Made by a program: the position numbers and the translations under genes. DNA of 64,000 bases, taken from assembly GCA_052171275.1 (NCBI GenBank), contig CM125795.1, positions 651,557 to 715,556 of the forward strand. The letters run 5' to 3'. Shown here piece by piece: positions 24,081 to 63,226 of this stretch. Source of the DNA: Arsenophonus sp. (GTDB lineage Bacteria > Pseudomonadota > Gammaproteobacteria > Enterobacterales > Enterobacteriaceae). The notes under the pieces were generated by a model that searched no databases, had not been told where the DNA came from, and worked only from the letters and a program-made list of their open reading frames with translations. Position 1 is the stretch's first letter. The number at the start of each line of letters is the position of its first letter.

Positions 24081-24116
24081 TAAACTGTTTTTATCTTATA
24101 AGATAAAAACAGTTTA
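24081..24116. repeat. Perfect 36-nt palindrome (18-bp arms, no spacer)
   Basis: The sequence is taaactgtttttatctta|taagataaaaacagttta. All 18 pairs were checked. It lies ~230 nt beyond the rluC 3' end, in the region where yceF/maf sits in E. coli. Confidence 0.9.
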
Positions 24117-25292: not shown

Positions 25293-25720
25293 TATTTAAT
25301 TATAAACTTCATTAATATTTAAATTTAATAAGTGTTATTAGTAAACATAATAATTTTCTTTATTTTAATTTTTTTCTTTATTTTTTAATTTATTTATCAA
25401 ATCAATTTATCATTTTTTATAAAAAGTAATAAACTAAAAAAGTTATCTTGATAACTACCCATAAGCAATGGAATAATGAAGAGTCGTTATAATATTTATA
25501 AAAATAAAAGTTTGTTTAATTTGATTTCTATTTATTTTTATTTTTTATAATACTCAAATAGAGTAATAACAAAATATCCTGTGTAAAATCAAAAAAAAAT
25601 TATTAAATTGCTAACAAAGGTTTTCTGAATTAATCAACATATAGATTGAAGAAATAAATTCAGCAATATTTTAAAATATTAAAGATTTAATATTTTAAAA
25701 AACATAGTTTTACTAAAAAA

Positions 25721-36300: not shown

Positions 36301-39300
36301 GGATTTATTCATTGACATAAATCCATTTAATAAATTATTTAATCTATTACTGATAATATCTTTTGACTATTTTATAATAAAATAAATACTTAGAATATAT
36401 ATCAATAGTTTAATTAAGATATGACTATTTATAATATTTTAATTTATAAAAAAGAATCATCATATATATAATTAATAATTAAGATAATTTAGTTTTCTAT
36501 ATATAATAATTAAATTTATATTAATATAATTTTAATTATTAATATTAAGGTAGATAAATAATTAAATATTAAGCTAAATAACAAAAATTGAATAATTTAT
36601 CAAATAATAGTTTCTAATATAAAAATACTTTTATATCAATTTAATTGATTTAAAAGTATTTTTGATAGTAAACTAATAATAAAACTTACTCATATATCGA
36701 AATTTAAATCTTTGAATATTATAAAACTAATAATTATAATAGTAAATAAAATTATTACCATTAAATCATAATTTGTATGAATAATTAATGATAAAATGAA
36801 ATAAAAATTAATAGTTTATTTTATTTGAATTATTCAAGGTTAAAAATTAATATAATTTAAAGTAAAAAATATATAATATAACGTTAATAATATTTTTAAA
36901 TATGTAAATAGTTTATTAATCAAGATTAATAATAGTGAAATTATATTTCTATATTAACTTTTAAAGTATAATAAATTAAATGAATTAAAGGTACTAAAAT
37001 ATATTAATTCTATATAAACTATTTTTATTTATCTATAAAATATAATGTTGAAAAATTCATTTTTATTTTAAAATATTTAATTTTTGCTGTTAAATACTGT
37101 ATAATTTCATTAATTAAATAATTATTAAATTAATCATCTAAATTTTAGAATATAATGTTAAAACGATTAAATATATAGATATTTTATGATAATCATATAT
37201 ATTAAAAATATCAATATTAAAATTTATAGTTAATGGATAATTTTAATATTGATTTTTTATTACTGTTATTATTATTGATTAAAAGAATTTAATATAATTT
37301 AAAATTTTTTATAAAAAACAAAAATTATAATATAAATTTATAATAATTATCTTATTAACCAATAAAAATCTAATATATCATTTAATTTCAAAAAATATCA
37401 TAAAAAAAATATTTTTCTTCTATTGTAATAGATTTATTTTATCTACTTAAATTTTATCTTTAACATAAGATAGATAATATCGTATCGTTATTAATAATAT
37501 TTAGCAATTAATTTAATAGAAATTATGATTATAATAATGTTATGTAATAAACTACTTAAATATTTAATATATGATTCATATTCTTATTTATAAATTATCT
37601 TTATTAAAAATTAATTAAGAATTTATATTTATATTTAAAATAAAATAATTAATTAATAATTATTTGATTAAATTTTTTTAGGAAATATTTTCTAAAATAG
37701 TATATAAAATATATTTTTTGATTTCCTTAAAAACTTTACAGATTCTAAGAAATAAATAATATATTAATATATATTAATAAAATAATATTAATTTTTGATA
37801 AATTACTTGATAATTTTTATCTAATATATTTATTAAATAGAACAAAAAAATAAAATATATCTAATTAAAAAAGATTTTAACAAATAAAAAAATAATTTAT
37901 TTAGATTTTTATCTAATATAAGAAAAAGTTTTTACAAAATGATAAATATTAATTTTAAAATTTTATTTATCAGATAATAAATCTATTTTTTAAAAGTTTA
38001 ATAATAAAAGATAAATAAATTTAATTATAAATATTGAACTTAAAAATAAAATATAGTAAAAGAACAGTAATTAGGATTTAATATATAATATAAATATATC
38101 ATCTTAATAATCATTAAGCATTCTTGTTTTTATGATCTAAATAACATCAATTGAAAGTATATATATCTTAATTTCAATAAAACAATATAGTTCTCAAAGT
38201 AACATTTAGCTAATAGAAGAAAAAGTTGATGTAAATGTTTTATTTAAAAAAAGAATAAAGATAAATAGATTAATATTAATAATAAAATTATTAATTATAA
38301 AAGATAGATATATATTGTATAATTAAATCGATTATCAATATAGTAAAATATAGAATAAAATATAATCAAATAAAAAATTTTATATATTAATATATATTAT
38401 TTTAAATAAAAAATTTATAAAATTTAATAATAATTAATTCTGAATCATAAAAAATGATAATTATATTAACCATAATTTTTATTAAAGTTAATAATAAAAA
38501 GTATTTAATCTATATTTATTCTCTTTTAGTGTTAATTATCATTACCTTTAATATTTTTTATTTAATGAATAAGATATTAATAATAATTAGTAGATGAATT
38601 TTAATAAAAATAATAATAGTAATTAATTTTAATTTAAAATAAATTCTATATTTCAAAAAAAATATTAAAATACATTTAACTATATAAAATCTTAAATAGA
38701 AATTATAATTCAAATTTAGTCATTATCTTATGATATAAATATCCGATAACTAACTTATCAAAAAAAATGAGCTAATAAATATAGTTATTCTTAGTAATTA
38801 TACTAATAATTATATGTATGAATAATACATAAAACATTTATTAATGTAATAATAATTACAAATATAAATAAATCTAAAAGAAATTAGTAAATAGTAATTT
38901 AAGTTAAATATTTCAATTAAAATAAATTATTTAATAAATAATAACTGTAGTGTAAATAAATATTTTATCTTATCTTATTTAATTTTTTTAAAAAAATAAT
39001 TTTTAATTCTATAATAATAGAGGTTCAATCAATAAGTATTATTTATTAAATGAATATCTATTAGTTCTAAGTTATTTTTTTAAATAATTTATTATAATTC
39101 AGAGTAAAATATTTGTTTTTATTCTAAAAATAATGATAAATTTTTATAAATTCGATATTAACGATAAGAATTGTAAAAGATGATATCTTCATAAATAAAT
39201 CATTATTTTAATAATATGATATACCTTAAATTAATTAAAATTATTATTTATATTAAATATTTTATAATATAATATTATTTATGTTTTTTTTATAAAAATA

Positions 39301-40822
39301 ATAAAAGTTTATTTTATAATCAATTAATTTTAATACATTAAAGTTCAGGTTTTTTATATTTTAAATTACACATAATAATCTATTTTTAATTTCTTATCAT
39401 TTATAATGAATGATAAATAAGTTAATTAAATGTTAGTTATAATAACTATATCTTAATTCAATTATAAGTTAATTTTGAATTTTAATAATAAATTAATAAC
39501 TTATTAATATTTATTATTAAAAAATAAAATAATAAGATTATTGTAATTATAATAATAAAAATTATTAATCCAAAACCATTATTATTAATTAGTCTATCTT
39601 ATTTATCATTATTTTTTAAATAATGTGAATATTTCATAATATAATAATCAGAATATGTTTTGAGTAAAGATATTATAAAGAAAATTAAATACTTAGCTTA
39701 AATTAGAATTTAAGTTTTTTTAAAAGAACAGTTAGACTTGGTTGTGATAAATGTGTTAATAGTTAAATAATTTATTTTATTATATATACCTTATAAGTAT
39801 TTCAATAAATTTTAAGATTTATATGAATAATTATTAACTTAATACTTATATTGAAAGATAAAATAATTTTTTTTAATATAAATATTAATGATATATGATC
39901 TAATTATCTTAAAATAATGTTTTATTTAATTAAAATATAATTAAAATATTTATGATAAAATAAATTAATCATAAAATTATGAATTTTAATTTTATATTTA
40001 ATTTATATTAATAGATCTTATAAATTTTCTTATGATTAATATCGTTATAAAATTCGAATAATTTTTTAAATATTAAATCTAAATAATCTAAATTTAATAA
40101 CTCTTTTTATGTTTGTTATACTGATAAATATAATTTATATTATATATTGTTTTTTATTTTTATTTAAATAAACTATGAAAGTTTTATATAATTTGCTATA
40201 TTATAGTTATTTTAATTGTATTAATTTTTATATTCTTAATTATAAATATTATTTGATTTTTAATATCTTTAAAGTTAAATGTTTTAAAAATCATATTAAT
40301 TATTGCTGAGATAAGATGGATAAGCTTACTCATGGAGAATATATCTATATTTTCTGGATATATATTTATTTATCAAAAATTTCTGAACTATAATTATAAT
40401 TATTTAATATCATAGTTTTAGATATTTAATGTTTTATTTATTTTTATTTATTATATTTAACCAACTTAATCAAATTTAATATTTATTTTTAATTGATTTA
40501 ACATAATTTGATATTTTAATATTATTTTTTAAAATTATTATAGTTATATACGATAAAATCGTAATTAACGATTTATTATAATTAAAACTTAATAAGCAAA
40601 TATTAAAGTATTTATATTATAAGCTTGTATGATTTTTATTAATCAACTATTAATAAATTAATTATAAAATTATTCATATAATTAATTTTAAAAAGTATTT
40701 TATAAAATTTTATATATTTTTATATTATAAATTAACAAATAAAATTATTGATTATTTAAATTTCAATAACTTAGATTAATATATATTTAAAAATAAAAAG
40801 TGTTTTATTTTAGGATAAAAAT
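33327..40822. other. A/T-saturated non-coding tract (7.5-kb gene desert)
   Basis: There is no ORF of 60 aa or more on either strand, and I recognise no tRNA-like or other G/C-rich island. A few slightly more complex patches (e.g. 35520-35720, 38100-38280, 40290-40360) gave no readable homology. Confidence 0.6.
36621..36663. repeat. 43-nt quasi-palindrome (21-bp arms, one T:T mismatch, 1-nt centre)
   Basis: The sequence is aaaaatacttttatatcaatt / t / aattgatttaaaagtattttt. Twenty of 21 positions pair, and the only mismatch is 36634 with 36650. Confidence 0.85.
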
Positions 40823-41674
40823 ATGAGAAATAATATGAAAATTATTGGAGCACATATAAGTGCGGCTGGTGGTATAAATCAAGCAGTACAACGTGCCTAT
40901 GAAATAAATGCTGATACATTTTCTTTTTTTATAAAAAATCATCGAAAATGGCAAGACCATCCGTTAAAAGAAAAAACAATAGAACAATTCAAGATAAATT
41001 GTGAAATGTATAATTTTAGTAAAGATAAAATTCTTTCGCATTGTAGCTATCTTATTAATTTAGGTCACCCGGAAATAGAATCACTTAAAAAATCACGTGC
41101 TGCGTTTCTTGATGAAATGCAGCGTTGTGATCAGTTAGGCATTACTTTGCTCAATTTTCATCCAGGTAGCCATTTAAATAAAATTACTATTGATGCATGC
41201 CTTGCTTGTATTTCTAAATCAATAAATATTACTTTAGCAAAAACTAAAAACGTTATTGCTGTAATTGAAAATACTGCTGGTCAGGGATCTAATTTAGGAT
41301 TTAAATTTGAACATCTAGCAACGATAATTGAAGCTATAGAAGATAAACAGCGAATTGGTGTTTGTTTTGATACTTGTCATGCTTTTGCATCAGGTTATGA
41401 TTTACGAACAAAAGAAGATTGTGATGATACTTTTATAAAATTTAATAAAATTATTGGTTTTCAGTATTTAAAAGCAATGCATTTAAATGATTCAAAGAGC
41501 AAATTTTATAGTCATATTGATCGTCATGAGAACCTTAGAGAGGGTAATATCGGTTATATGCCTTTTATGTATATTATGAAGGATAATCGTTTCAACAATA
41601 TTCCTTTGATTATAGAAACAACAAATCACAAGATATGGCCTGAAGAAATTTCATGGTTAAGATCTCAACAATAA
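40823..41674 (+). CDS. nfo: Endonuclease IV (AP endonuclease)
   Basis: The 283-aa ORF is colinear with E. coli Nfo (IGAHxSAAGG, [38 protein letters not shown], CxDTCHAFAxGYDLRT, MHLNDxKS, DRHxxLxEGNIG). An AGGA SD precedes 40823. By homology the start could instead be the ATG at 40835 (MKIIGAH). Confidence 0.92.
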
Positions 41675-44600
41675 TCAGGATTTATTATGTATTTTATTTT
41701 AAACAATATGTAAAAATTTATTTATTGATATTTTTATAAGTACTATAATTATATTTTATAACTATAATAAGTTAATATTTTAAAAAATAAATCAATATTG
41801 AATTATTTTTATTTAATAATTATACAATTTAGTTATTCAACTTATTAAGTTGGAAATAGAATAAATTATTAAATTATGAATTTATGTATATATAATGTTA
41901 TGTATTATAATGCTTATTATAAAAATAAAAAATATTAATTTACTTAATAACCAGAATTATATAATATAAAAATATTGTAAAATAATAATATTAAAAGAAA
42001 TATTATAATAATTAAGTAATTAAAATTTAACACTTTTTTTGCTTAATATTGTTATAATTATTATATGTGAAACTTTATAAGTATATTAATAAATTTTATT
42101 TTTAATTATAATTTCTATTATTTATTTATTATAAGATAAATTATTTTTAATATATATTTTATTTTATATATTTTCTATCTTGATAATTTTATAAATTAAT
42201 ATAAATTATGTTATAATAATTTTTACACTATTCTAAAGGATTTATACTCTATCAACGCTTAAATATATTAAGTAATATTCCAATAAATTTTATTTTTTAT
42301 ATCTTAACTTATGTTTATATTTTCTCTGACAATTAATTATTATGTATAATTTTAATGATATAATGCCAATAAATTATCCTATTATTATTTTATTTTTTTA
42401 ATTTATTAATTACTTCATTGTTTGTCTTTCAATTAAATTTGTTAATTAAATTTAATTGAAATTTTAATTTATTAAATAATTATTGTTTTATCATCTTTAT
42501 AAGTAAAATATTTAACAATAATTAATATTATGTTATTTATTATTAATAATAAATAATCTAGATATAAGTTATAATTTTATGTATTTATTATAAGTTTTTA
42601 ATTATTATTATATAATAATCTGCTGAAGTTAAGTTTTTATTTTAGAATAAAAAACAACAAAGAAATTATTTTATTTTGATATTCAAAATTTTTATTATTT
42701 TAGTTTTATTTTATCTTATGATTAAAAATATTTTATTAAAAAAATTAATACTATTTTTAAAATAAATTATTATTAAATATTTTGATTATACTTATTTTTA
42801 AATTAAATATATAATAGTATCAATAATATTGTTATATAATATAATATTAACCTTTATCAAAGATATTTATCATTTATTTAATAGTGATTTGTTTATTATA
42901 AATATATAACATTATTTACTATAATATAATATATTTGTTTATATATTAATAATATTTGGTGTATACTTATATATAGATATTATTAAATATTGATTTTTTA
43001 ACGTTTTGTTAAGTTATATTATTATAATTATTATTATAAAATTTTTACTATAAAATATATTCACATTCAAAATGAAAATAATGAAAATATACTATAGATC
43101 GTATTTATAAAATAAATTATTAGTTAATATTGATTTGAATAAAAAATTTAATAACAACTTAAAATCAATAAGAGTTTAAAAAGAATTTATTATTTGTAAA
43201 ATAATAAATTATTATTATATTTATAGTAATCAACATATATCTTTAAATAAATTAAAGATATTAATTTTCTCTAAATTTTTAAAATATATAAAATAAGAGT
43301 TATTATTTTTTATTTTATTATATGAAATATATAGTTTTAAAATTCTAATAATCAAATATAATATTAAAATTATTATGTTAAATCTATTTAGTTATCAATA
43401 CAATAATTGTAATAAGATCACTTATTATAAAAATAGCGCATGCTAATATTAATAAAGGAATAAACTAACTATTATATACTATATTATAGTAATAAGGTTT
43501 TAAAATATTTCATTAATTTACAAAAATATCCATATTATTATATTAATTCTATAATATAAAATTAATATAATTTATATTAATAAAATTAAATAATAACTAT
43601 TTTTAATTATAAATAATTTTTTAACAAAACTAAAAATAGTAATCATAAAAAGAAGGGTAATTGATTATAAATATTTTGTTGTTATTTTTTTTATGAATTT
43701 AAAAGCGAATTTTAAATAAATTTAATTAGTGATTTTTTATAGTTGTTTTATTAATGAACATATATTTATTTTTTAGTTATAATCTTTATATTTATTAATT
43801 AGTTTATTTTAATATATATTTATTTATATATTATTAATATGTAGAAGAGCAGTGAAATAAAATAACTATATATATAAAATTAATTATATTTTAAATTCAT
43901 TTTTATAGATATAATAATTTTTAGTTAAAATATATTATTTACAGTAATAAATATTATATATTAATTTAAAATTAAAATGTAATATGTAAAAAGTATTTAG
44001 ATTTAATAAAAATAAAATTTTTAAAAAATAACTATAATTCAATAAAATATTATAAATTATTTAAGATAAATTTATTAATTAGTTAATTTTGATTTCTTAT
44101 TAATAAAAAAATCTTCGTTTTAAAAAATTACTTAATAAAATATTAAATTTAAAAAAAATAAAAAATTTTCTACATATATAATATTTATTTTATAAAGAAA
44201 TTTATTTTTATAACTAAATCTAAGAAAATATATTATTTTTATTTCTTAACATAAACTTTTTACTTATTTTAAGATGTTTTTTAAAAAATATTAAGCTATA
44301 TGAAATTATCTAACTGATAATGCTAAAAATATATTTTAGATTTAATATTGAAGAATAGAAATATTTTTGAATTTATTTCATATTATAAATATATTAATAA
44401 TATATCTCTATATGAGAGATATATTATTTTGTGGAATAGTTATATTAATCATTAATATAATATCTATATAACTTATATTAAGTTTATCTAAATTTATTAC
44501 TAGATAGTCAAAATAATTAATTTAATTTAATATCAGATAATTAAACAGTTATTTATATAACACTAGATTATTTAGTAGTACTAAATATATCATAAATATT

Positions 44601-46193
44601 TAAAAAAATTTCTCTATTATATATTAATCTTTTTCGCATTTTTTTGTGAAAATATTTTTTCAATATTAAATATATCTCTATAATAGAGTTTTTAAAATTA
44701 GAAAATAAAAGAAAACAGCATATATATATTTTTAATTATCTAAAATTGATTAGAATATATAAAATTTATTAGAATATCTAAATTATTATTATTTAATGTA
44801 AGTTATAAATAATATATAAAATAATTTATTATATAAAGTATTTTATTAGTTGATAAAAAGTAAATAAATTATTTTATATTAATTTTAATCTATAAGTAAT
44901 AATGATATTTATTATTTTTATTTTATATAATATATAATTAAATACTTATAAAGTATGAAGTAAATATTTAACTCTAATATCCAATAATATTAATATAAAA
45001 AATATTTTATATCATAAAAGAAAATTTCTATATATTATTCATTATGAAAATAATTAAATTATTAACATAAAAAATAAGTTTATATTAAAAATATTTTTTT
45101 ATTTAAGATAAATATAGATAAGTTAATAAATATTATTTATAAATATAAATTATTGAATAATTTAAAATAATTTATTTTTTTTAAAATATAATTGTTGTTA
45201 ATTTTAAAAGTAAAAAATGATATATTCCTATTAATAAATTAACAAATAATACTTATTTCATATCTGAAAATATAGATGCCACAATAATATAAAATAAATA
45301 AGGATAAAATAAGACAAACCTGATATCACTAAAGATTATTTATATTAAAAATCAGTGATAAAAAAATAATATCTTGATTGAAATGGATATTATTAAGTAT
45401 TATTTATAATAAAATATTATATATTAGATTACTTTCTATTCTTATTAGATATTAACTGTCGTATTTTTTAAAACTAATTAAGATGAAACAGTATTGTTTA
45501 AGTTTATTTTAAAAAAAATATGTAAACCGCTTTGTTAATAAAGTTATTAATAGTATACCGATATGGTAACTTATATTTATATATTATTCTATTTATATAT
45601 AACTAGTATTAGCATATAAAGTAATTTAATAGGATTAAATTACTTAAGTTTTTTTATAAACTATAAAATTAATATCTATAAAAATTAGATATAGCTGGTT
45701 TTTCTTCTTTAATAACAAAATATACTTATAGTATATATTATTTTATAAAGTTATCAGTATTACTAAATGTTATCTAGTTACTATATTTAATATTGAGTAA
45801 AAATAATTATTTAAACTTTTAATATAATATTATGAAAACTAAATATTTATAAATGTATATTTAATAATAATATATAAATCAAATAATACTTAAATTTTAA
45901 TAGTTATTAAAATATTATATTTTTAAATATATATTTATTAATCGTCATTTTTATTATCTATTTAGTTTTAATTTATCATATTTATATTATAAAAAATAAT
46001 TTATTTTATAAAGTTTAAATAAAGTTAAGTTAAAAATATTTTTATAATATAAAATTAAAATTTAGTAATAATATATAAACTAATAAATAAATATCAAAAT
46101 ATCATTTAATTTGATAAATAAAAAGATATTTTTAAAATTATTTAGTAGATCCTTATAAATAATAAAATTTATTTTTATATTATATAATTTTAA

Positions 46194-46295
46194 ATATCAA
46201 CTATTCAATCAACAAATTAACTACTATATATTAGTAATAATAAATTCTTCACTACTAATATATAGTAGTTAATTTGTTGATTGAATAGTTGATAT
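46194..46295. repeat. Perfect inverted repeat, 43-bp arms, 16-nt spacer (102-bp hairpin/cruciform potential)
   Basis: The left arm is atatcaactattcaatcaacaaattaactactatatattagta (46194-46236), the spacer is ataataaattcttcac, and the right arm is tactaatatatagtagttaatttgttgattgaatagttgatat (46253-46295). I derived the reverse complement by hand and found 43/43 pairs. Each arm contains several G/C positions. Confidence 0.95.
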
Positions 46296-47983
46296 AAATA
46301 ATACTTTCCACAAAATAATAATAACTATTATATATATCTAGTTAAATGATAATATATATTCATATTTAAATTATATTAATAATAAAAGTAATATTTTAAT
46401 ATAAATATAATGATACTAACTGTTTTATAAGATAAAAACTAAGCTTATTATTTTAATAATAAAAATAAAAATTTGATATTATTATATTAGCAATGTTATT
46501 AAGTAATTTATACTTTATTTTAAATTTAAATTAAATATTAAATATTAATAAATTATTTTTAATTTCATATCAAAATATTTTAAATAAATTAAATAATCAA
46601 ATTTATAATTAAGTATATCATTAAATATTAATTTTTATTTTTCAAGCTAAATTATTAATTAATTATTTAAAGTAATGTATCAAATAATAAATAATAATTA
46701 ATTTTAATAATCAATTTAAACAAAATATTTAATTTAAAGTAAATTATTTTTCTTTAATAAAAAATCATTTTTTAAAAAAATAAAATTTTTATAAAAATCT
46801 ATATAAGATAATTAATTATATAATAGTTAATAATAAAAGATAAAATAAAACATTTAATAAATTAATCAACTTATGAATTATAAATTAATCAAATCTAAAT
46901 TATAATATTTATCAAAATAAAAAATAAAAAATTAAATTTAATATTTATGTTAATAAATAACAATTTTATATAATATTATTTTTTTAGTTAACTAACTTAT
47001 TATTATTTTAAAATAATAAAATAAATAATTAAAATCAAATAATCCAAAATATATTTTTTGATTAATAATAAAACTATTAGAAATATATAGATATTTATAT
47101 AAAAATAGATTTTTAATTAAAAGAATATAAATATATTCTATATATATAAATTATATATATAGAATATTATTAAAAATCAATTATATTTTATGATAAATTT
47201 TAATATTTAAAATATATATAATATTTAATCCATAAAATTATATATTTAAGATATATAAAGTTTTATTAATAAAGAAAAAAATAATATTTAAATTTAAATT
47301 TAAATATAAATAATTATATATTTAAAATAAAGAAAATTCAAAAAAAAATAAAATTAATCTAATAAAAAAACTGTTTTTTTAAAATAATTTAAAAAGTACT
47401 TATAATGTTTATAAATAAAACTTATCGATTTTCAGAAAGATTTTTGAGTGAAAATAACTAATAAATCCATATATTTTATTTAACATTAATAAATCAAATA
47501 AAATTTTATAATAATAAAATGAATTCATTGATATATATAACTACTATTAGTGCAATAGGAGTTATATGATTTATAAAAATATATTATATGAAAATTAATC
47601 ACAATCAAATATATTGTTCATTAAAACTATGATTAAAAATTATTAATCTTAATAATTTTATAAAAATAGTAAATTTACTTGATATTATTTATTAAAAACA
47701 TAAATCTATGAAGTAATAATAAAAAAATAACCACACTTAACATATTTGCTAACTATACTATTAATTATTGATTAGTAAAATTAATTTATTATCAGTTAAA
47801 ATATGGTTATATAAAATTATTTTAATTTTAACTATAGTATAAATATTTTAGTTTCTTATAATCAACTAGTAAATAAAACAAATAAGTATAAATAGATAAT
47901 TTTATTAATATGAGTTTAAAATAAAAAGAATTGAACTAAAATAATAAAACACTAAGTTTATACATAAACATATTTTTAAATAA

Positions 47984-48018
47984 AAAAAAATGAATATTAT
48001 TATAATATTCATTTTTTT
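47984..48018. repeat. Perfect 35-nt palindrome (17-bp arms around one central T)
   Basis: The sequence is aaaaaaatgaatattat / t / ataatattcattttttt. All 17 pairs were checked. Confidence 0.85.
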
Positions 48019-50607
48019 ATTAAATGAATATTAGATATTTCATTAATATTATAATCAAGATCTAATATAAAATATATTTATGATAAAAATTTATAAATCT
48101 AATAATCAAGGATTAAAAATATTTTTTTAACTTTACAGTATCATATTGATTCTTTAATAATTAAAAAATAAATTTATTTAATTATATTAATAACGGTTTT
48201 ACTATAAATTATAAATAATTTTATTTGATTAATTATAATATATTTACTAAAAATTTATTAAAATCTCTATTAAAATATATTAGAATAATATTTTAAAATA
48301 AGTTATCTGAAACTTTTTCAGAATAATTATATATTAAATTTATTATTAGTTACAATAATAAAACTAGATTTTATTTTTATCTAACAAACTTTCAATAGTA
48401 TGTAATTTCATTATAACTTACTATTAATAAATATTTTATATTATTTTTATTAACTTTATTATTAAATAAACATAACTTTTTATCTTATTTTATGTAAAAT
48501 AAGATAAATTAATAATGTCATTATATGATGTAATCTTCCAAATAGTTAAATATTATTTTTCTTAATTTAATAAACTATTTATTATTAATTGATAATAAAT
48601 CAAAATATATTTATATTTATAATTATATCAAATTATAAATTCATATTTTTTAAAAAATAATTAAAACAAATATATAATGTAAATAATTATAATTTAATTA
48701 TTCTGATTAAATATCTTTCTGTTAAAAACAGATAATTTATTACAATAAATCTTATTTTTAAAATATATTAATTTAAGGAGAATTTAAATATAATTCTCAT
48801 TTATTTTATTTTAATTAAATTAAAATAGTTATATGTAATCATTGTAAACAAACTAGTTATTGTTAATATTATTAAGATCTATCTTTATTGTCATAAAAAA
48901 GTAAGTAATTGGTTTTCTATATACTAATGTAAATAAAAAATCTTTTTATTATTGAATTATCTTGATTAGTTCAAGGATGATTATTTAATTAGTTTATATA
49001 AAGAACTAACTATATATAATTACGATAAATATCACCAATATAAAAATCCAATCGTTAGTACTTTTATATGCCTAAATAACAAGAGTTAAATAAAAAATAA
49101 AATGATAATAAAATTATTTTATATGTATATAACTTATGATAAAATAAATTATTCTAATAGTATTTTTTATTAATTATTTAATTGATATTATTACATCAGT
49201 TCTAAATTAACTTAAAATAATAACACTAAATATTAATAAATCATTCAAAATTATAATAAAATAACAACAAATAATATATTTATATTATCTGAATCATAAC
49301 ATCTCTATATTCTATAGAAATTAAGGTAAATTAAATATTAATAAGATAAATATTATCTTATTTATTGAATAAACTAACAAATTAACTTAATTTTTATCAT
49401 TGATATATGATATATATAAGTACTATATTGAATATAGTAAAGAATTTTAGTATGTTATTATAAAATAACAATATGATATCACAGTTTATATAGAATAATA
49501 GTAAAAATCTATTATTTTTAATATTTCAAAGAAAAAAATCTATTAAGTTAATATATTAATTTAATTAATATAATAGTAGTGCTATTTTGATATTTTTACT
49601 ATCATTCAATTATTATTATATATTTCTCAAATTAAAGATTCTTTTTTATTAATAATTATTTTTTTGAATTAAAGCTATTGATGATAATATCAATATATTA
49701 TACATATTTAATATGTATTAAATTTTTATGATATTTTTATATTAAAATAGTAGATAAAAATTAATCAATAAAATAAAGTTAAAGTTTATATTTTACTATT
49801 TTTTATTTTATTAGACAATAATTCTAGATAGTAAAGGAATTAATTCATTATGATAATAGATATTGAAGTTTATAATAATAACTCGACAAATAAAAAATAT
49901 AAATTTTATTTAAAACATCAATTTTAATGGTATTAAATAATATTTTAGTGCAATATTAATATTATTTTTTATATTTTAATTAATTAATAATATTTTTCAT
50001 AAAAATATGAATAACATTAAAAAATTCTATTAATTTATACTATAAATGCATTAGAAATAAAATGATCTAACTAAATACAATATGATAAGAAAATACTTAA
50101 AATTAACTTTACTTTATTAAAATTACAATAATAGTTCTAAACTATTTTGATTAATAATTTGATTTTAATATAAAGTATTTAAATAATCTATTTATTTCTA
50201 TAATTTATAATTATAAAACATTTTAAATTTAAATAAAAAACTTAAATTCATATTTTATTTAAAAGTAAGATTATCTCATTTTAATTTTATTATCATATAT
50301 GTAGATTAAATATATTTTACTAAATAAATATTTTTATTTTTAAAAAATTATCGTTTTATAGTTAATCTTTTTTAACAAAACTATTTTTTATTTTTATTTG
50401 CTATATAATAGTTTTTATTAAGATTAACTTTCTATAAAATAAAAAGTTCAAACAATTTAAAATACTTTCAGTAGATAATTTTTTGCTAGAATATATGTAT
50501 TAAATTGAAAACACTTAACCAGTGTTTTTTCAAAAAAAAAGTTTTTGTTACTAGATTTGCAAATATGTCTTGTTTGTTTTAAATCCTTTATAATATGAGA
50601 AAAAATA

Positions 50608-50889
50608 ATGTTAATTATTAATACAGAAATACGTAAAGAATGTGGTAAGGGTCCAAGTCGTCGTTTAAGTAAAAAAAATAAATTACCTGCTATTATCTAT
50701 GGTGGAAACAAAAAATCTATTTCTATTATACTTAATCATGATGAAATTATTAATCAAGAAAATAAAGTAGAATTTTATAAAGTATTAACTTTACTAATTA
50801 ATGGAGAAGAAAATAAAGTTAAAGTGCAGGCAGTTCAACGTCATTTATTTAAACCTAAGCTAATACACATAGATTTTTTACGGATTTAA
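50608..50889 (+). CDS. rplY: 50S ribosomal protein L25
   Basis: The 93-aa ORF is colinear with E. coli L25 (INxExRKExGKGxSRRL...NKxPAIIYGG...EFY...VQRHxxKPKLxHIDFxR). Confidence 0.95.
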
Positions 50890-50932
50890 TATTTTAAAAA
50901 TATTTTTTATAAATTAATAATTAAAAAAATTT

Positions 50933-50953
50933 TCTGTAATATTACAGATTTTT
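50933..50953 (+). terminator. Possible weak intrinsic terminator after rplY
   Basis: The palindrome tctgtaat|attacaga (an effective 6-bp stem with 2 G:C pairs) is preceded by an A-run and followed by ttttt, 44 nt after the rplY stop. It is weak, and similar structures are frequent in this background. Confidence 0.4.
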
Positions 50954-53900
50954 AACATTATCAATATTTTAAAATATCAAAATTTCTAATTAAGTTCGAT
51001 TATATATTTTAATTATTAAAATATTTACTGTTAGACAAAATGAATGAATTGATTATTTTAAATAAAAATACCTTAATAAAATAATAAAACAGTAAATTAA
51101 TTTTCAACCAAACAGTTATAAATTAATATTTAATTAATTATTTAAAAAGATTTATTTTGATATAATATATATAAACTTTTTTATAAATTTATAATTATTT
51201 TTTAAAAAAAATTAAGAATATTTTTCTTAAATCTGATAATTTTATATAAATATATTTAATTTAAGTTTTCTTAATGTTATCATCTTATTTATTTATTGTC
51301 AAGTTGTTAATTCAAAAGAATATATATAATTATTTATAGTTTATAGTAATCTTTTATTTTTTATTTTAATATTTATATATTTTAATCACTAATTTAAAAC
51401 CAATAAAATTATATAATTTACGTCAGATATATCTTTAAAAAAAAGTTAAATAATTTTATTTAAAAAAAATATTTATTTTTTTAGATTTATCTAAGTAATA
51501 ATATTAATATTTTGTATATTAATATAATATGTAGTAATTAATCCATTTAATTATTTATGTAACAAATGTATCCAATTATATCTATTTAACAAGACTATTA
51601 ATAAACTAATTTTATAATAGATAATAATTTTATAAAATAACAATTATAACTACTATTTTCTTTTCTTAATTTCTATTAATTCTTTGATTAATTTTTGATT
51701 TTTTAACTAAAAACGCTAAATATTTATTTTTAAAAAAAAATAAATATTATATAATTTTCTTATTTTTTTTAAAAAAAATCATTTTACTTAATAAAAATCA
51801 AGTTAGAATAATATATATTAATTGTTAATTATATTTTGATCAAGTTTTGCTGATATAAATAATTTAGAAAATATTTAGATCGATCATATTTATTTTTTAA
51901 TCTTTTATATATAAAGATATAATTATATTCAAATATTGATAATTTTCATGTTATTAAATTTATATTTATTTGGATGCAATATTTTACATGTATAGATATA
52001 TATAATCTATAATTAACAAAAATTATTAAATTAAATTATTTAATTAAATTAAAATATAATTTCTTAAAAAACTTATTAATATGATAAAATATAAAATCTT
52101 ATTTATTAGTAATTTTTTAATGTATTATATAATATATTAACTTATCTTCCTATTATAATAATTAATATTAAATATATTCAATATTAATTAACTCAGATAT
52201 TAAACAAACAATGTAAAATATAAAACTAATTTATAGTTTTGCTATCAAGTTATATAGAAATAAACTTTGATCAAAGCATAACTCTTATATTAATCATTGA
52301 AAATTTTTTTTGAATTATTCTATTCTTAATGAAAATAACTAATTATAGAAAATAATATATTAGATGATTGGTAAAATTTTCAAAACTATCGTGAACAAAT
52401 TTACTAGATTATAAATTAGTATGTATTGGTTTATATCATTTAATATTAATTACTTATTTTATGTTTAAGTAAATTAAATATATATTTATTTTTATTAATT
52501 TAATAGACTTAATGTCTAATTATTTAATTATTAGTTGACTTAATTATTTAGTTTTATTATTTTTTTATTTTCTACATTTTAATTACTTTGGTTATTAGAG
52601 ATAAAACAGCTATTGAAATTTCTTTATAAGCTATTTTTTTACTATAAGTTTATTGATTTTTTTATTTTATATTAATTAGTATTTATATTGTATCAAAATT
52701 TCTATTAGATCCACTATTTTTTTGTAAGTCTTTATTAGTTAATATTAAAAAAATAATGAAATAGCATGTAATTGATATTAATTTTTTAACTATAAAAAAT
52801 TATTTTTGAATAGAATTATTTTTTGATATTTTAGTTTTAAAAATCATGAAATTCAAACTGTTAATAATTTTATAAGCATTTTCTAAATATTTTATCGCAG
52901 CGGTTCATTAGTTCATATTTAATGTGCATATTGATTAAAAAATTTAATCAATAAATAATAATGAAATAAACTAATTATCCTATATTTTATCATATATGAT
53001 AGTAAGAAAATTTCTTAAAAGTTATGTGGATTATCTTGATAAAAATAAAATTTTAATATAAAATACATTAAAAAAAACTAATTATTTATCATCATTGATT
53101 AAATGTATATAAGAATTTTTTACTGAAATAAGTAAAAATAATATTCTTTATTGCTGTTTTTATATATAAACTTTACTACTTGAAATATAATAAAATATTT
53201 GCATTAAGATTAAATGTTTTGAAATAAAAAGATTGAATTCAATTAATATTCAATTGTAGGTTTTATTAAAAATAAATGAAATATATTTTATTTAATTTAT
53301 CATATAATTTTTCGTTTTATTTATATGAATAATATTAGTTTATAATAGAGAATTATTCTATTTTACTAAAATATTCAAATATAATAACTACTAATTTTAT
53401 TTATTTTGATCTTAATATATTTAACTATTATAATACTTTTATTATTATTTATATAATAAATTGTTTTATTTAAATATTAAAATAATTATTTTTGAATTAT
53501 TAATGAATTTAATTTAAATAGTTATATAATATATAAACTAATATTTTATGGTTTTATTTTCTTAAAATTAATAGTTTCAATAAAAGTTATAAGTAATAAT
53601 AAAAGTATGATTAGATTAAGAGATTAATTTATATATTTAATTCGTTAATAATATGTTATATAATAATGCTAATTATTTATTACTGAAATAATATTTCTAA
53701 TATAGAAAATTAAAATAATTTAAATAATAATAAATTTATTATTAAGAAATGCAAAGCATGCTTATATGAATGCATTAATTTAATTTTAGATCTATATTCT
53801 TATATTTGATTTATAGGAAATTAATATATATAATTATATTAATTTTATGACTATTTAGTTATTTTATTAAAAATATACATGTTTATATTTTTATAATAAA

Positions 53901-56900
53901 ATTAATAAAATAAAAAATGAAAATTTAATTTAATTTATGAAAATGTTATAATAAATATAGTTTATTTAATATTTTTATTTATATTAGAAAATTATTTTTT
54001 ATATAATTTTGATTAATTTTAATAAAATGATGATCTAGTAAATCATATTAGCATATATCTAAATAGATTAAATTTTCAATGTGAAAGATTTAAATAATTC
54101 TATCAAGGATTATTATCCTAACAAGATATATAATTTATCTATTATAATCATATATTTTTTATTTAATAAATAAAAAATATATAACAAAAATATAATTTCT
54201 TTGATTTTTTTTTAAAATAAATAATTTAATATTGTGTTTATTTTCTAATAATTATATTAATAATGTTTAATTTAAAATTTACTAAATATTTTTATTTATT
54301 TAAAATTAATTTAAATTTATTTATAATAATATTTATTATTACTTTTATCGTTGTTTATTTTCTCATATAATACATATATTATATAGTATGATATATGTAT
54401 TATAATAATTAGAAAATATAAATTACTATATGAAATATTAGCTTTTAAATTAATATTTAGCTGATTAAATATTTTATTAATCTTTTTTATCTGAAAGAAA
54501 ATAATTATAATAAATGTTAAAAATAAGTCTTATAAAAAAGACTAACTTATAATTTATAGAAAAATAAATGTTTAAAATTATACTTTAATTTTATGTTTTT
54601 TTACTTTTAATAATAAAAAATAAGTAGTTTATTTATCTAGATTTTTATTATTTAATATTATTTTTATATAAAAAATAAGAGGATGTATTAGATATTTTTA
54701 TTAAAAATAAAATTTAAAATAATAATTATTAACATAAATATAATTTTATTTAATATTTAATACAATTTATGAGCAAATTATTTGATTAACAATTTTAATT
54801 TAAAAATAAATGAATATTGTTATTCTATTAATTCGTGATATTTAAAGATATTATAAAAAATAAAAATTTTTTAAGAACAAACTAAAATTTATTTGATATT
54901 TTATTGATATTAAATTTATTAAGATTAAGCTCATACAATATATCTTTATAAGATGTTGAATAAAAAAAATAACTATTGCTTATATTTTAAAGTGATTTAT
55001 TAATTTCTATAATAATATATTTTTAATATACTTAAAAATATTAAAATATTTAAAAATAATATTTTTTACAAATTAATTTTATAAATCATAAAAGTAATTT
55101 ATTGGATAATGGAATAAACAAATTTGCTAACTAAAGCAATTTCTTAGTTAATTATTTAATAATATGATAAACTTAATTTTTAATTAATTTTAAGATATAA
55201 TCAAATGTCAATAAGATAATCTATATTAATATTTTTTTAAAGCGATTAAAAAAGAAAAGATATTAATTTTAAAAAGATTTTTTATAAAAGCCAATTATAT
55301 CACAAAAGTAATTTAATTCACTGTATATAAAAAAATAAGTTAGAATTAATATAATTTTATTATCATAATAGAAGTTTAATATATCTTTAAGTATAAATAT
55401 ACATTAACTTTTTAATTATAAGATAAAAGATTATTTTCGTTTCTTTAATAACCACGAAACATTATTACTTTGATATTATAAACTGAATGATTTTTATAAA
55501 ATAAAAACTAATAAATTTGAAATTAGAAGTAAAACTATCATTAGTTAAACTAGTTTTATCAAAAATCAATGATAAAATAAAAAAGGTTTTAAAAAAATTT
55601 TTTAATTTTTTAAAAAAATATGATAAAGAATTTAATTTTTAATAAATTTCTTTAAATATTCACTTTTTATTAAAAGTATTTAATAAATAGTTATTAGCTA
55701 AATTTATATTTATTTATTTTTAAAATAAAAATCTAAAAAAGCTAGTTAACTAATATTTATAATAATAAACACATTATATTAGAATTTTCTTTTATAAAAA
55801 AATAAAAATAGATTTATAGAAGCAAATTACTGATAAAAATCAAAAAATAATATTAATACTCTAGAAAATGAAAGATAGCAATATTCTCACAGAGATACTA
55901 GCTAAATTATTATTAGAAAATATTAAATTAATTTAAGTTTAAATATAACTTAAATTAATTCATTTTAACAAATAATTTTATCTCAATATTACAAATTAAT
56001 AATTTTGTAGTTTTTATTTCTGAATAATTAAATTTTGATATTTAAAAATTAAGTCATTATTTTTTAATATATTTTATTTTAATAAATACAATAAATTTTC
56101 ATATAGAATGATCTATATACTTTGTTCGTTTATTTAATAAAGTTTAAAGTTATTATTTTAACTATTATAATAATTAATAATTTTGCTACTTTTAATAAAA
56201 TTAATTATGTTAGTTTGATTATTTTAGATTAATATTTTTTTCTTTATCTATAATATAAGCTTATTAGATATAATATATCCTAATTGTAATAATATTACTA
56301 CTTCTAAATAAAATAAGTTATTATTTATTATAGTTATGCAATAAAGTGATATGATAACGATTAAAATTGTTTATGTATTTTAAAATATAGTTAATATATA
56401 TTATTAATATTATTTTAATTTTTGATGTTTCTTTTATATTATTTAGTTGCAATAAGTATATTAATTATCAAATTTATAAATTCAATATCAAATATTCATT
56501 TAATTTAGTATTAAATAATTTTATATTATATAAAATTATTTAATTAAAAAAATAAAATAGCTAATTTTAATTTAATTACATATACTAGATAATTAAATTA
56601 TTTTAATTAAGATATGTATAAAACTATTAAAAATTGAATCAAAAACTTAATTATAAATTATTTTAAATAGATACTTTAAATTAATTTTTATTAAAAAATT
56701 ACTTTTTAAAGTAATTTAAAATATTTTAATATAATAAATTTAATATATATTGAATAATGTTATTAAATAATTAACAATTAAAAATTATTAATAAAGATAT
56801 TAATAGTTTATTTTATGATTTAATCAATCAGATAAAACTGATTATATAATTTATATTTTTATTAGTAATTAAAAAATATACCATACAAATATGTTTTATT

Positions 56901-57249
56901 TTATATAAAAAGTTAAATTTCTATATTAATAAATGAATTTATTATTATATGTAAAAATAATTTTTTAGAATATTCTATTCGAAAATAATAATTAATATAT
57001 TTATAGATAATAAATTATTTTAAATTGTTCTTAATCCTAATCTTAAAATAAGCATCATTTTTTCATATAAATTTATTTATTTACTTATTTATAAGTAAGA
57101 ATATGAGAAAATATTCATATTAGTTAAATTTATTTTACTTGAATGAGAAATTTTATTATAAATATATGTATATTTATACAATATTAATTAAAATTCTTTG
57201 AGAGAATGCCATTTATTAATTTACTATATAAAAGATTGATTAATTTATT

Positions 57250-60879: not shown

Positions 60880-60925
60880 AATATTTAATAATTAATTAAT
60901 TAAATTTAATTAATTATTAAATATT
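60880..60925. repeat. Perfect inverted repeat, 20-bp arms, 6-nt spacer (A/T only)
   Basis: The sequence is aatatttaataattaattaa / ttaaat / ttaattaattattaaatatt. Pairs were checked by hand. It is followed directly by a second 11-bp hairpin (taatagataat atc attatctatta). Confidence 0.8.
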
Positions 60926-63167: not shown

Positions 63168-63226
63168 ATAAATAATGATTATATTAAATTTTAATGATAT
63201 TCAAATTTAATATAATCATTATTTAT
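63168..63226. repeat. Perfect inverted repeat, 24-bp arms, 11-nt spacer
   Basis: The sequence is ataaataatgattatattaaattt / taatgatattc / aaatttaatataatcattatttat. All 24 pairs were checked by hand. Confidence 0.9.

What the first reader, a model, noticed from the sequence alone, without database searches (positions are those of the whole stretch)
46194..46295. 102-bp perfect hairpin (43-bp arms) in the middle of a gene desert
**Seen in the sequence.** There are 43 consecutive complementary positions with no mismatch around a 16-nt spacer, including several G/C positions.

**Rough estimate.** This is my own back-of-envelope figure, assuming ~92% A+T, which I eyeballed rather than computed. 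The pairing probability per position is about 0.43, so a perfect 43-bp arm pair at short spacing is expected far less than once per genome by chance.

**Context.** The surrounding sequence is mutationally saturated junk, so a mismatch-free structure must be either very young or maintained.

**Established knowledge.** Palindromes of this size can extrude as cruciforms or hairpins on the lagging strand. In E. coli they are attacked by SbcCD.

**Inference.** Possibilities include a recent template-switch or snap-back duplication, a protein or replication-related cis element, or an assembly artefact. I found no second copy, no target-site duplication and no ORF, so it is not an obvious MITE or IS end.
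Basis: partly seen in the sequence, partly recalled or inferred. Interest (0 to 1): 0.7.

Follow-up and report, generated by a model that had tools for sequence, protein, structure and literature searches.

The report
Self-correcting flip-flop hairpin in junk DNA
A perfect 43-base-pair hairpin in the decayed, gene-free DNA of an insect-symbiont bacterium (Arsenophonus) is real and old, and it most likely stays perfect because its two arms keep copying each other during DNA replication, not because it does a job.

Summary
Arms 46194-46236 and 46253-46295 are perfectly complementary around a 16-nt spacer, far beyond chance. It is not an assembly artefact.

The window comes from a roughly 2.02-Mb Arsenophonus insect symbiont. 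The hairpin lies in an 11%-GC desert of dead genes between nfo and rplY.

Seven genomes of a sister lineage, about 7% diverged in neutral DNA, carry the same hairpin with perfect 44-bp arms.
- The arms differ from the window's at four positions (three C:G to T:A changes and one deletion), and every change is mirrored in the other arm.
- The arms change at the neutral rate, and the flanks are no more conserved than the rest of the desert.
- The spacer is an exact reverse complement between genomes 99.7% identical. Its orientation disagrees with the flanking phylogeny, so it flips repeatedly.
- The window holds a 25-fold excess of perfect short-loop hairpins. Some show outgroup-polarised events: a loop inversion, an arm extension and mirrored indels.

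Best explanation: a neutral inverted repeat kept perfect by template switching or arm-to-arm conversion. Selection for a function is not excluded, because shorter hairpins nearby are not maintained in this way. This is a new example of a known kind.

The parts
46194..46236 (.). Left arm of the inverted repeat (43 nt, 18.6% G+C)
   Evidence: It is the exact reverse complement of 46253-46295. The sister lineage has a 44-nt arm that differs at C13T, C28T, C31T and one deleted A.
46237..46252 (.). Spacer or loop (16 nt, ATAATAAATTCTTCAC)
   Evidence: It is homologous to the 13-nt core AATAAAATTCATC of the sister lineage. That core occurs in both orientations among 7 genomes that are 99.3-99.9% identical. 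The window's outermost loop bases, A46237 and C46252, form an A.C mismatch where the sister lineage has an A-T pair.
46253..46295 (.). Right arm of the inverted repeat (43 nt)
   Evidence: It carries the mirror image of all four differences seen in the left arm: three G-to-A changes and one deleted T. Logan contig L089 starts at 46266, 30 nt from the arm's outer end.
41675..50607 (.). Gene desert holding the hairpin, made of decayed pseudogenes between nfo and rplY
   Evidence: A 36%-GC Arsenophonus (L082) has six genes over 9.2 kb between nfo and rplY. The window has 8.9 kb with only a permease remnant at 42244-42446. G+C is 11.4%. The gene calls made for the sister genomes in the public collection list nothing between nfo and rplY.
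11382..11431 (.). Comparator hairpin (22-bp arms, 6-nt loop) with a polarised loop inversion
   Evidence: The loop is TATATC in the window and in the sister-lineage outgroup. It is GATATA, the exact reverse complement, in three roughly 99%-identical relatives.
24081..24116 (.). Comparator palindrome (18+18 bp) extended by a multi-base change derived in the window strain
   Evidence: The outgroup and five close relatives share ...TTATTTA. The window has ...CAGTTTA, which completes the pairing with TAAACTG.
18296..18335 (.). Comparator palindrome (20+20 bp) with an indel mirrored in both arms
   Evidence: The sister lineage has an extra AG in the left arm and an extra CT at the mirrored place in the right arm. 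Logan contigs of two other samples break 30 nt inside it.
10111..10148 (.). Comparator hairpin (16-bp arms) showing a compensated substitution and its intermediate
   Evidence: A T:A pair in the window is C:G in CP198938 and CP198939, and a T.G intermediate in CP198934.
44814..44879 (.). Comparator hairpin (17-bp arms, 32-nt loop) whose left arm is a lineage-specific 17-nt segment
   Evidence: The 17 nt are absent from all three sister genomes examined. They equal the reverse complement of the downstream arm. Polarity is not resolved.

Best explanation
The element is an old, non-coding inverted repeat sitting in neutral DNA left by dead genes. It arose before the two symbiont lineages split, most likely by a replication template switch that copied a nearby stretch in reverse complement. 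This origin is inferred.

Since then, the nascent strand has repeatedly folded back or jumped to the other arm or strand at this site during replication. Each such event does two things:
- It recopies one arm from the other, so a mutation in one arm is either erased or transferred to its partner. This is concerted evolution, and it keeps the stem perfect with no selection on pairing.
- When the switch spans the spacer, it inverts the spacer (flip-flop).

The same process creates, perfects and extends many shorter hairpins across the desert. Those turn over quickly. The 43-44-bp arms are long enough to be corrected faster than they mutate.

**Shown:**
- the hairpin is present in both lineages
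- all arm differences are mirrored in the other arm
- the arms change at the neutral rate
- the spacer inverts repeatedly
- polarised template-switch events occur at neighbouring hairpins

**Inferred:**
- the events are replication template switches rather than recombinational gene conversion
- no selection is involved
For: 1. **Age.** Seven sister-lineage genomes (CP198934-CP198939 and JBQMSC01) have the hairpin at the same place with perfect 44-bp arms. Desert substitution divergence from the window is 7.0-7.4%, plus many indels.
2. **Coupled arms.** Of 45 pairs, 3 changed on both sides (C:G to T:A) and one pair was deleted on both sides. None of the 43 pairs that are perfect in the window changed on one side only. 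The single exception among the 45 is the loop-proximal A.C.
   - At desert rates, independent evolution predicts 6.6 broken pairs.
   - The joint probability of the observed pattern is about 6e-6, before counting the mirrored deletion.
3. **No sequence constraint.** Arm substitutions are 3 of 43, or 7%, which equals the desert rate. Identity over the hairpin is 0.853 and over the flanks 0.90-0.93, against a desert mean of 0.891.
4. **Spacer flip.** GATGAATTTTATT occurs in 3 genomes and its exact reverse complement in 4 genomes that are 99.3-99.9% identical.
   - All 5 informative sites supporting that split lie inside the loop.
   - Six flanking sites group genomes with opposite loop orientation, so there were at least 2 flips or a standing polymorphism.
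5. **A general process.**
   - Stems of 16 bp or more: 18 observed, 0.7 simulated, 0 mirror-repeat controls.
   - Almost all of these lie in DNA of about 10% G+C.
   - Outgroup-polarised events: a loop inversion at 11382-11431 and a palindrome extension at 24081-24116. The extension cannot come from recombination between pre-existing homology.
   - A 2-nt indel is mirrored in both arms at 18296, and a compensated pair plus its T.G intermediate occurs at 10111.
6. **Length trend.** The share of changed pairs that are two-sided is 0 of 87 for 12-15-bp stems, 5 of 61 for 16-24-bp stems and 4 of 4 for the 43-bp stem. This tally leaves out 12 pairs in the 12-15-bp class that are deleted on both sides.
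7. **Literature.** Template switching is reported to create perfect stems in one event and to cause multi-base compensatory changes, stem extension and full loop inversion (PMC8794818; PMC10710096). It is also reported to homogenise arms and invert spacers (PMC8604942 abstract).
Against: - The 43-bp hairpin stands out from the others. Shorter desert hairpins mostly show one-sided differences from the sister lineage: 84 and 55 one-sided pairs against 0 and 5 compensated. The perfect maintenance is therefore specific to this element, which is also what selection on one functional hairpin would produce.
- It has survived in a region with many indels. There are 1102 gap columns over 8.9 kb, and indels of 62-105 nt separate strains that are 99% identical. 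Long palindromes are usually thought to be prone to deletion.
- The origin event itself was not observed, because both lineages already have the hairpin.
- Replication template switching cannot be told apart from recombinational gene conversion with these data.
- The repair-gene content of the genome (recA, sbcCD, xseAB, mutSL) was not examined.
- The sample is small: four changed pairs and two lineages.
Confidence: 0.66

Rival explanations
1. It is a selected cis-acting structure. The hairpin, as a DNA cruciform, a lagging-strand hairpin or a transcribed RNA stem-loop, does something for the symbiont. Candidates are a replication or segregation signal, a protein-binding site that reads shape, a small RNA or an invertible switch. 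On this view, selection on pairing fixes the compensatory changes.
For: - Pairing is perfect in all 8 genomes across about 7% neutral divergence, with 4 two-sided and 0 one-sided changes.
- Neighbouring shorter hairpins are not maintained in this way.
- It has survived in an indel-rich desert.
Against: - The arm sequence changes at the neutral rate, and the flanks show no conserved island.
- It lies 4.3-4.5 kb from the nearest gene on either side, inside dead-gene DNA.
- No Rfam family reaches its gathering score. The only hits are a eukaryotic miRNA-precursor model at 45-48 bits against a gathering score of 80, on both strands, which indicates generic hairpin mimicry.
- Two-step compensatory evolution under selection should be slower than neutral. 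It would not readily produce a mirrored 1-nt deletion.
- The spacer flips freely.
- The same signatures occur at other desert hairpins that are unlikely all to be functional.
- The site is at about 34% of the record's coordinates in CP198938. That would not be the point opposite the start, but I did not check where oriC lies.
Confidence: 0.2
2. It is a remnant or an active copy of a mobile or repeated element, such as a MITE, an IS end, a REP-like palindrome or a phage or plasmid site. Its perfection would reflect recent insertion or element-encoded processing.
For: Terminal inverted repeats and hairpins are typical of such elements. Copy number across the whole 2.02-Mb genome could not be checked.
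Against: - There is no other copy in the 64-kb window at up to 3 mismatches.
- There is no match in viral contigs.
- The only plasmid matches are two weak AT-rich hits covering 25% of the query.
- There is no ORF and no target-site duplication beyond trivial A runs.
- It sits at the same locus in both lineages, with orthologous flanks.
Confidence: 0.05
3. It is a very recent, one-off snap-back or template-switch duplication in this strain.
For: The arms are perfect. Template-switch events are demonstrably happening now at other sites in this strain.
Against: The hairpin is present at the orthologous site in 7 sister-lineage genomes, with arm sequences that have diverged at 4 positions.
Confidence: 0.03
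4. It is an assembly or library artefact, such as a chimeric join, a palindromic contig end or a foldback read.
For: Inverted structures are a known class of artefact. The window's own read data were not available.
Against: - It is internal to a 64-kb contiguous stretch with normal genes on both sides.
- Contigs from a separate k-mer assembly break exactly k-1 nt inside each arm, and both carry the arm next to the proper flank.
- Seven other genome assemblies show the same structure.
Confidence: 0.01

Closest known systems
Hairpins created and maintained by template-switch mutation (Ripley's quasipalindrome model; Loytynoja & Goldman 2017; Monttinen & Loytynoja 2022, PMC8794818; Monttinen et al. 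2023, PMC10710096)
   Same: The stem is perfect and of a length that can be made in one event (30-55-nt stems in PMC10710096). The locus and its neighbours show multi-base compensatory changes, stem extension and full loop inversion, which are the footprints listed in PMC8794818. All were observed here.
   Different: Those studies concern rRNA and miRNA genes and primate genomes, where selection on RNA structure acts as well. Here the hairpin lies in bacterial pseudogene debris with no sign of function. The arms (43-44 bp) have been kept perfect across lineages, and the spacer flips recurrently.
Hairpin-associated small inversions in non-coding chloroplast DNA (Kelchner & Wendel 1996; Kim & Lee 2005; Catalano et al. 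2009, as cited in PMC12371153)
   Same: Both occur in AT-rich non-coding DNA of a polyploid, organelle-like genome. A short spacer (4-50 bp) lies between inverted-repeat stems and is found in both orientations among close relatives, with homoplasy (here).
   Different: The host genome here is a bacterial endosymbiont, not a plastid. The stem is at the long end of the range, and concerted evolution of the arms is documented directly.
Quasipalindrome-associated template-switch mutagenesis in Escherichia coli (Lovett laboratory; for example PMC6357072)
   Same: It is an experimentally established replication error, in a related bacterium, that converts imperfect inverted repeats into perfect ones.
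   Different: The E. coli assays use short engineered quasipalindromes in lacZ and measure single events. Here the evidence is comparative and concerns natural neutral DNA. The role of ExoI or ExoVII could not be tested. sbcB carries an old, apparently tolerated frameshift.
Arm-to-arm gene conversion in large palindromes and inverted repeats (human Y-chromosome palindromes, plastid large inverted repeat). This comparison rests on my own knowledge.
   Same: Arms stay nearly identical over evolutionary time through intramolecular conversion rather than through selection on each base.
   Different: Those arms are kilobases to megabases long and contain genes, and the mechanism is homologous recombination. 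Here the arms are 43-44 bp with a 13-16-nt spacer, which favours hairpin or template-switch chemistry.
[quoted passage not shown] 2018; both only seen here in the reference list of PMC8794818)
   Same: There is a genome-wide surplus of short inverted repeats beyond composition-based expectation. Here it is 18 observed against 0.7 expected for stems of 16 bp or more.
   Different: Most of the DNA here is neutral and about 89% A+T. The surplus is therefore unusually visible and can be polarised with close relatives.

Membership tests
Inverted repeat generated or maintained by template-switch mutation | A perfect reverse-complement repeat at short distance, beyond chance | tested here: met
   The arms are 43 bp with a 16-nt spacer. 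Simulated maxima averaged 15.8 bp and never exceeded 23.
Inverted repeat generated or maintained by template-switch mutation | Multiple changes between lineages that are mirrored in both arms (multi-base compensatory changes) | tested here: met
   There are 3 two-sided substitutions and 1 two-sided deletion, and none of the 43 pairs perfect in the window has a one-sided change. The probability under independent evolution is about 6e-6.
Inverted repeat generated or maintained by template-switch mutation | Full inversion of the loop with its length preserved | tested here: met
   The 13-nt loop is an exact reverse complement between genomes 99.7% identical. Three genomes have one orientation and four the other.
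Inverted repeat generated or maintained by template-switch mutation | A derived multi-nucleotide cluster, polarised by an outgroup, that creates or extends pairing | tested here: inconclusive
   This is met at the neighbouring palindrome 24081-24116 and suggested at 6318, 44814, 47133, 54366 and 55926. It cannot be tested for the origin of the 43-bp hairpin, which predates the available outgroup.
Inverted repeat generated or maintained by template-switch mutation | Dependence on DNA replication (nascent-strand switching) rather than on recombination | not testable with these tools
   Comparative data only. The extension at 24081 beyond any pre-existing homology argues for templated synthesis.
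Chloroplast-type hairpin small inversion | A short spacer between inverted-repeat stems in AT-rich non-coding DNA, with orientation varying homoplasiously among close relatives | tested here: met
   Orientation conflicts with 6 flanking informative sites. All 5 sites supporting the orientation split lie inside the loop.
MITE / IS terminal repeat / REP-like element | Multiple dispersed copies | tested here: not met
   The only copies in the 64-kb window are the two arms. There are none in viral contigs. The whole 2.02-Mb genome was not searchable.
MITE / IS terminal repeat / REP-like element | A target-site duplication, or an associated transposase or RAYT gene | tested here: not met
   The flanks are ...TTTTAA and AAATAA..., with no duplication beyond an A run. 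There is no ORF of 20 aa or more.
Intrinsic (Rho-independent) terminator | A short G+C-rich stem followed by a T run, downstream of a gene | tested here: not met
   The stem is 43 bp at 19% G+C. It is followed by AAATAATAC on the + strand and by TTAAAATTAT on the - strand. The nearest genes are 4.3-4.5 kb away.
Known structured RNA family (Rfam 15) | A match at or above the family's gathering score | tested here: not met
   There are no hits at gathering score in the window. The only sub-threshold hits are to mir-7563, at 48 and 45 bits against a gathering score of 80, on both strands.
Long-palindrome substrate of SbcCD | Hairpin cleavage or instability that depends on sbcCD, and presence of sbcCD in the genome | not testable with these tools
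   Only 64 kb of the genome was available, and sbcC and sbcD are not in it. sbcB (ExoI) is present with an old frameshift in a T10 run.

The most novel reading that the evidence does not exclude
The hairpin is a genuinely selected cis element, retained as a lone functional island in 16 kb of dead DNA in a 2-Mb decaying symbiont genome. It could be a DNA-level signal read as a hairpin or cruciform during replication or segregation. It could also be a small invertible or transcribed element whose pairing, but not its sequence, is under selection. Its exceptional maintenance compared with all shorter hairpins nearby is what this reading explains best.
Probability: 0.15. Interest if true: 0.7.

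Novelty: new member of a known kind. Interest (0 to 1): 0.45.

Why it matters
Co-varying changes that preserve base pairing are usually taken as the strongest evidence that a structure is functional. Here a 43-bp stem in evidently neutral DNA shows perfect covariation, including a mirrored deletion, together with a flipping loop. The stem evolves at the neutral rate. That makes it a clean natural example of covariation produced by a mutational mechanism, namely template switching or arm-to-arm conversion.

The roughly 2-Mb Arsenophonus genomes are mostly undeleted pseudogene debris, and several close and moderately distant strains have been sequenced. They therefore form an unusually good natural mutation-accumulation system. 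They could be used to measure the rates, tract lengths and arm-length dependence of template switching in a bacterium.

If the hairpin instead turns out to be selected, it would be an unannotated functional element in a genome region assumed to be junk.

Tried and rejected
- **Genome-contig scan.** Relatives were reached instead through exact-protein look-ups and cluster members.
- **PtrB look-up.** The exact look-up found nothing.
- **Loss of Exonuclease I as the cause of rampant template switching.** Rejected as stated. sbcB has a frameshift in a T10 run, but the sister lineage has the same frame break and both halves are conserved. The gene is probably still expressed by slippage.
- **Origin or terminus signal from GC skew.** The sign changes near 46 kb are within the noise for about 200 G+C per 2-kb bin.
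- **Ancestral functional element, such as a terminator or REP, at the orthologous place in a 36%-GC Arsenophonus (L082).** Only chance-level short matches were found, and that locus has no stem of 14 bp or more.
- **Rfam.** Nothing reached gathering score. The mir-7563 sub-threshold hits on both strands were dismissed as hairpin mimicry.
- **Mobile-element origin.** There was no viral-contig match and only trivial plasmid hits.
- **Apparent inversion at window 10736 in L091.** Discounted because it lies at that contig's end.
- **Six-sequence MAFFT alignment.** It timed out and was replaced by local alignments.
- **Hairpin locus in the roughly 99%-identical strains of the window's own lineage.** It could not be retrieved, because their contigs are short and no gene is called near it.

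Full report
**1.
- Window 46194-46236 is the exact reverse complement of 46253-46295. That gives 43 bp with no mismatch around the 16-nt spacer ATAATAAATTCTTCAC.
- The repeat finder extends it to 50-nt arms at 94% complementarity.
- Folded as single-stranded DNA it gives -40 kcal/mol, z = -15.
- In 60 local second-order Markov simulations of the whole window, the longest perfect stem with a loop of 60 nt or less averaged 15.8 bp and never exceeded 23.
- No third copy of the arm exists in the window at up to 3 mismatches. No ORF of 20 aa or more overlaps it.

**2. Where it sits.**
- The window's genes (lolE, mfd, lpoB, holB, tmk, mltG, fabHDG, rluC, rne, sbcB, nfo, rplY, ptrB) are Enterobacterales-type. 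Nfo is 99% identical to a protein from 'Arsenophonus sp. ER-BJ3-MAG3' and about 76% identical to those of A. nasoniae and A. apicola.
- Cluster look-ups place the window's proteins on a 2,020,310-bp contig.
- A less reduced Arsenophonus (L082, 36% G+C) has six genes in the 9.2 kb between nfo and rplY. The window has 8.9 kb with only a fragment of the first gene, a permease, at 42244-42446.
- The hairpin therefore lies in pseudogene debris that has decayed to about 11% G+C with almost no net deletion. It is 4.5 kb from nfo and 4.3 kb from rplY.

**3. It is not an artefact.**
- Two contigs from a separate k-mer assembly of run SRR34985954 match the window at 100%: L001 covers 32303-46223 and L089 covers 46266-53001.
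- Each stops exactly 30 nt inside an arm. A k=31 de Bruijn graph must break there at a real inverted repeat with arms of 31 nt or more.
- Shorter palindromes of 36-40 nt elsewhere in the window cause the same kind of break.
- Seven further genome assemblies contain the structure.

**4. It is old, and its arms evolve in concert.**
- RplY and Nfo cluster members led to complete genomes of a sister lineage: CP198934 to CP198939, plus JBQMSC01.
- Their desert aligns to the window with 7.0-7.4% substitutions and many indels. Genes differ by 2.6-2.8%.
- At the orthologous place all seven have a perfect hairpin with 44-bp arms and a 13-nt loop.
- Compared with the window, the left arm differs by three C-to-T changes and one deleted A. 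The right arm carries exactly the mirrored three G-to-A changes and one deleted T.
- A formal count over 45 pairs gives 3 pairs changed on both sides, 1 pair deleted on both sides and 0 changed on one side. The only blemish is an A.C next to the loop in the window.
- Using substitution frequencies measured in the same desert (window C to sister T 19.3%, window G to sister A 20.2%, A and T sites about 5%), independent evolution predicts 6.6 broken pairs. The joint probability of the observed pattern is about 6e-6, before counting the mirrored deletion.
- The option "very young" is therefore wrong. The stem is maintained.

**5. Maintained how?** Three observations point to a mechanical rather than a selective cause.
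- *Neutral rate of change.* Arm substitutions are 3 of 43, or 7%, the same as the desert. Identity to the sister lineage is 0.853 over the hairpin and 0.90-0.93 in the flanks, against a desert mean of 0.891 with a standard deviation of 0.068. There is no conserved island.
- *A flipping spacer.*
  - The loop is GATGAATTTTATT in three sister genomes and its exact reverse complement, AATAAAATTCATC, in four. These genomes are 99.3-99.9% identical.
  - All five parsimony-informative sites supporting that split are the loop's own columns.
  - Six informative sites in the flanks group genomes of opposite orientation. This implies at least two flips or a persisting polymorphism.
- *The hairpin is the extreme of a population.*
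  - The window contains 36 perfect short-loop stems of 14 bp or more against 4.5 expected, 18 of 16 bp or more against 0.7, and 5 of 20 bp or more against 0.02.
  - Mirror repeats, an internal control with the same chance probability, number 10, 0 and 0.
  - Almost all of the hairpins lie in the stretches of about 10% G+C.

**6. Polarised events at the other hairpins.** Roughly 99%-identical strains were available as ingroup and the sister lineage as outgroup.
- *11382-11431 (22-bp arms).* The 6-nt loop is TATATC in the window and the outgroup, but GATATA, the exact reverse complement, in three close relatives. This is a derived loop inversion.
- *24081-24116.* The outgroup and five close relatives share ...TTATTTA. 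The window strain has ...CAGTTTA, a multi-base replacement that extends the perfect palindrome from about 12-13 to 18 bp per arm. Pairing is created where no homology existed before, which requires templated copying and not recombination between existing arms.
- *18296-18335.* A 2-nt indel is mirrored in both arms.
- *10111-10148.* A T:A pair is C:G in two sister genomes and a T.G intermediate in a third.
- *Others.* Several more hairpins (6318, 44814, 47133, 47984, 54150, 54366, 55926, 56510) are perfect in the window but imperfect or partly absent in the sister lineage, through clusters of changes.
- *Literature.* These are the footprints described for template-switch mutations: perfect stems in one event, multiple compensatory changes, stem extension and inverted loops (PMC8794818; PMC10710096; PMC8604942 abstract). 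Flipping spacers between short stems are also long known from chloroplast non-coding DNA (PMC12371153).

**7. What remains open.**
- A systematic count over non-genic hairpins, window against sister lineage, gave these results:

| Stem length | One-sided pair changes | Compensated changes |
|---|---|---|
| 12-15 bp | 84 | 0 |
| 16-24 bp | 55 | 5 |
| 43 bp | 0 | 4 two-sided |

- The 12-15-bp class also had 3 pairs changed on both sides without pairing and 12 pairs deleted on both sides. The 16-24-bp class had 1 pair changed on both sides without pairing.
- My own hypergeometric estimate for the 43-bp stem against the 16-24-bp class is about 2e-4.
- Short hairpins therefore turn over, and only the long one is kept perfect. 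This fits a correction rate that rises steeply with arm length, through hairpin stability or a minimum homology requirement. It is also what selection on one functional hairpin would give.
- I found nothing else that suggests function:
  - It has no ORF.
  - No Rfam family reaches threshold. The only hits are a eukaryotic miRNA-precursor model below threshold on both strands.
  - It shows no terminator anatomy.
  - It has no further copies in the window, no match in viral contigs and only two weak partial plasmid hits.
  - It has no similarity to the orthologous region of a less reduced Arsenophonus.
- I put neutral self-correction at about two-thirds and a selected element at about one-fifth.

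**8. Mechanism in plain steps.**
1. Inferred: an ancestral template switch copied about 43 nt in reverse complement next to its source, giving a perfect inverted repeat.
2. Shown indirectly: at later replications the nascent strand pairs with the other arm (intrastrand fold-back or interstrand jump), copies it and returns. A new mutation in one arm is then either overwritten or transferred.
3. Shown: switches that span the spacer invert it.
4. Inferred: with 43-44-bp arms these events outpace mutation, so the stem looks mismatch-free in every genome sampled.

Whether RecA-type gene conversion contributes, and whether SbcCD or ExoI/ExoVII are active in this genome, could not be tested from 64 kb.

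**9. Verdict.** The feature is real and statistically extreme. It is best filed as a new, unusually clear bacterial example of a hairpin maintained by template switching, with a flip-flop loop, in neutral DNA. Interest is moderate.

Noticed in passing
window 30409-31832 (sbcB), T10 run at about 30540-30549; L125 about 14733-16085: The Exonuclease I gene is split by a frameshift in a run of ten T. The sister lineage has A+T9 of the same total length, so it has the same frame break. The frameshift looks old and tolerated, possibly through slippage on the homopolymer, rather than like a fresh pseudogene.
   Followed up: partly
window 41675-50607 compared with L082 10841-20062: The nfo-to-rplY distance is 8.9 kb here and 9.2 kb in a 36%-GC Arsenophonus that still has six genes there. 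The dead genes have decayed to about 11% G+C with almost no net deletion. The genome is about 2.02 Mb with very low coding density.
   Followed up: partly
window 39820, 40142 and 40522, compared with L083: Three indels of 62-105 nt bounded by direct repeats separate strains that are about 99% identical, all within 4 kb. This suggests frequent replication slippage or tandem duplication.
   Followed up: partly
window 1945-2262 and 2623-5082 (mfd): Mfd is an 819-aa ORF with a separate upstream 105-aa ORF that hits the UvrB-interaction domain. The sister lineage's gene call is 853 aa. The N-terminal part of Mfd appears to be broken.
   Followed up: no
window 11675-12250 (lpoB) and 25849-28449 (rne): LpoB is 191 aa here but 151 aa in the sister lineage. 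RNase E is 866, 856 or 833 aa in different strains, with the length changes in the low-complexity C-terminal half.
   Followed up: no
window 63168-63226, 60880-60925 and 60921-60953: There are further perfect hairpins with 24-, 20- and 15-bp stems downstream of ptrB. They lie outside the region for which sister-lineage sequence was obtained, so their history is unknown.
   Followed up: no
window 46206-46283, both strands: Rfam's mir-7563 model (a eukaryotic miRNA precursor) matches at 48 and 45 bits against a gathering score of 80, with E-values near 1e-8. This shows how a long perfect hairpin can mimic a miRNA-precursor model.
   Followed up: yes
window 56600-57150: This is the most conserved stretch of the desert against the sister lineage, at 0.95-0.96 identity over 300-nt windows. 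It lies just upstream of ptrB and is probably its promoter or 5' region.
   Followed up: no
window 25669-25700: A perfect 15-bp hairpin lies 149 nt upstream of rne and is largely conserved in the sister lineage. It could belong to the rne 5' leader rather than to the neutral hairpin population.
   Followed up: no
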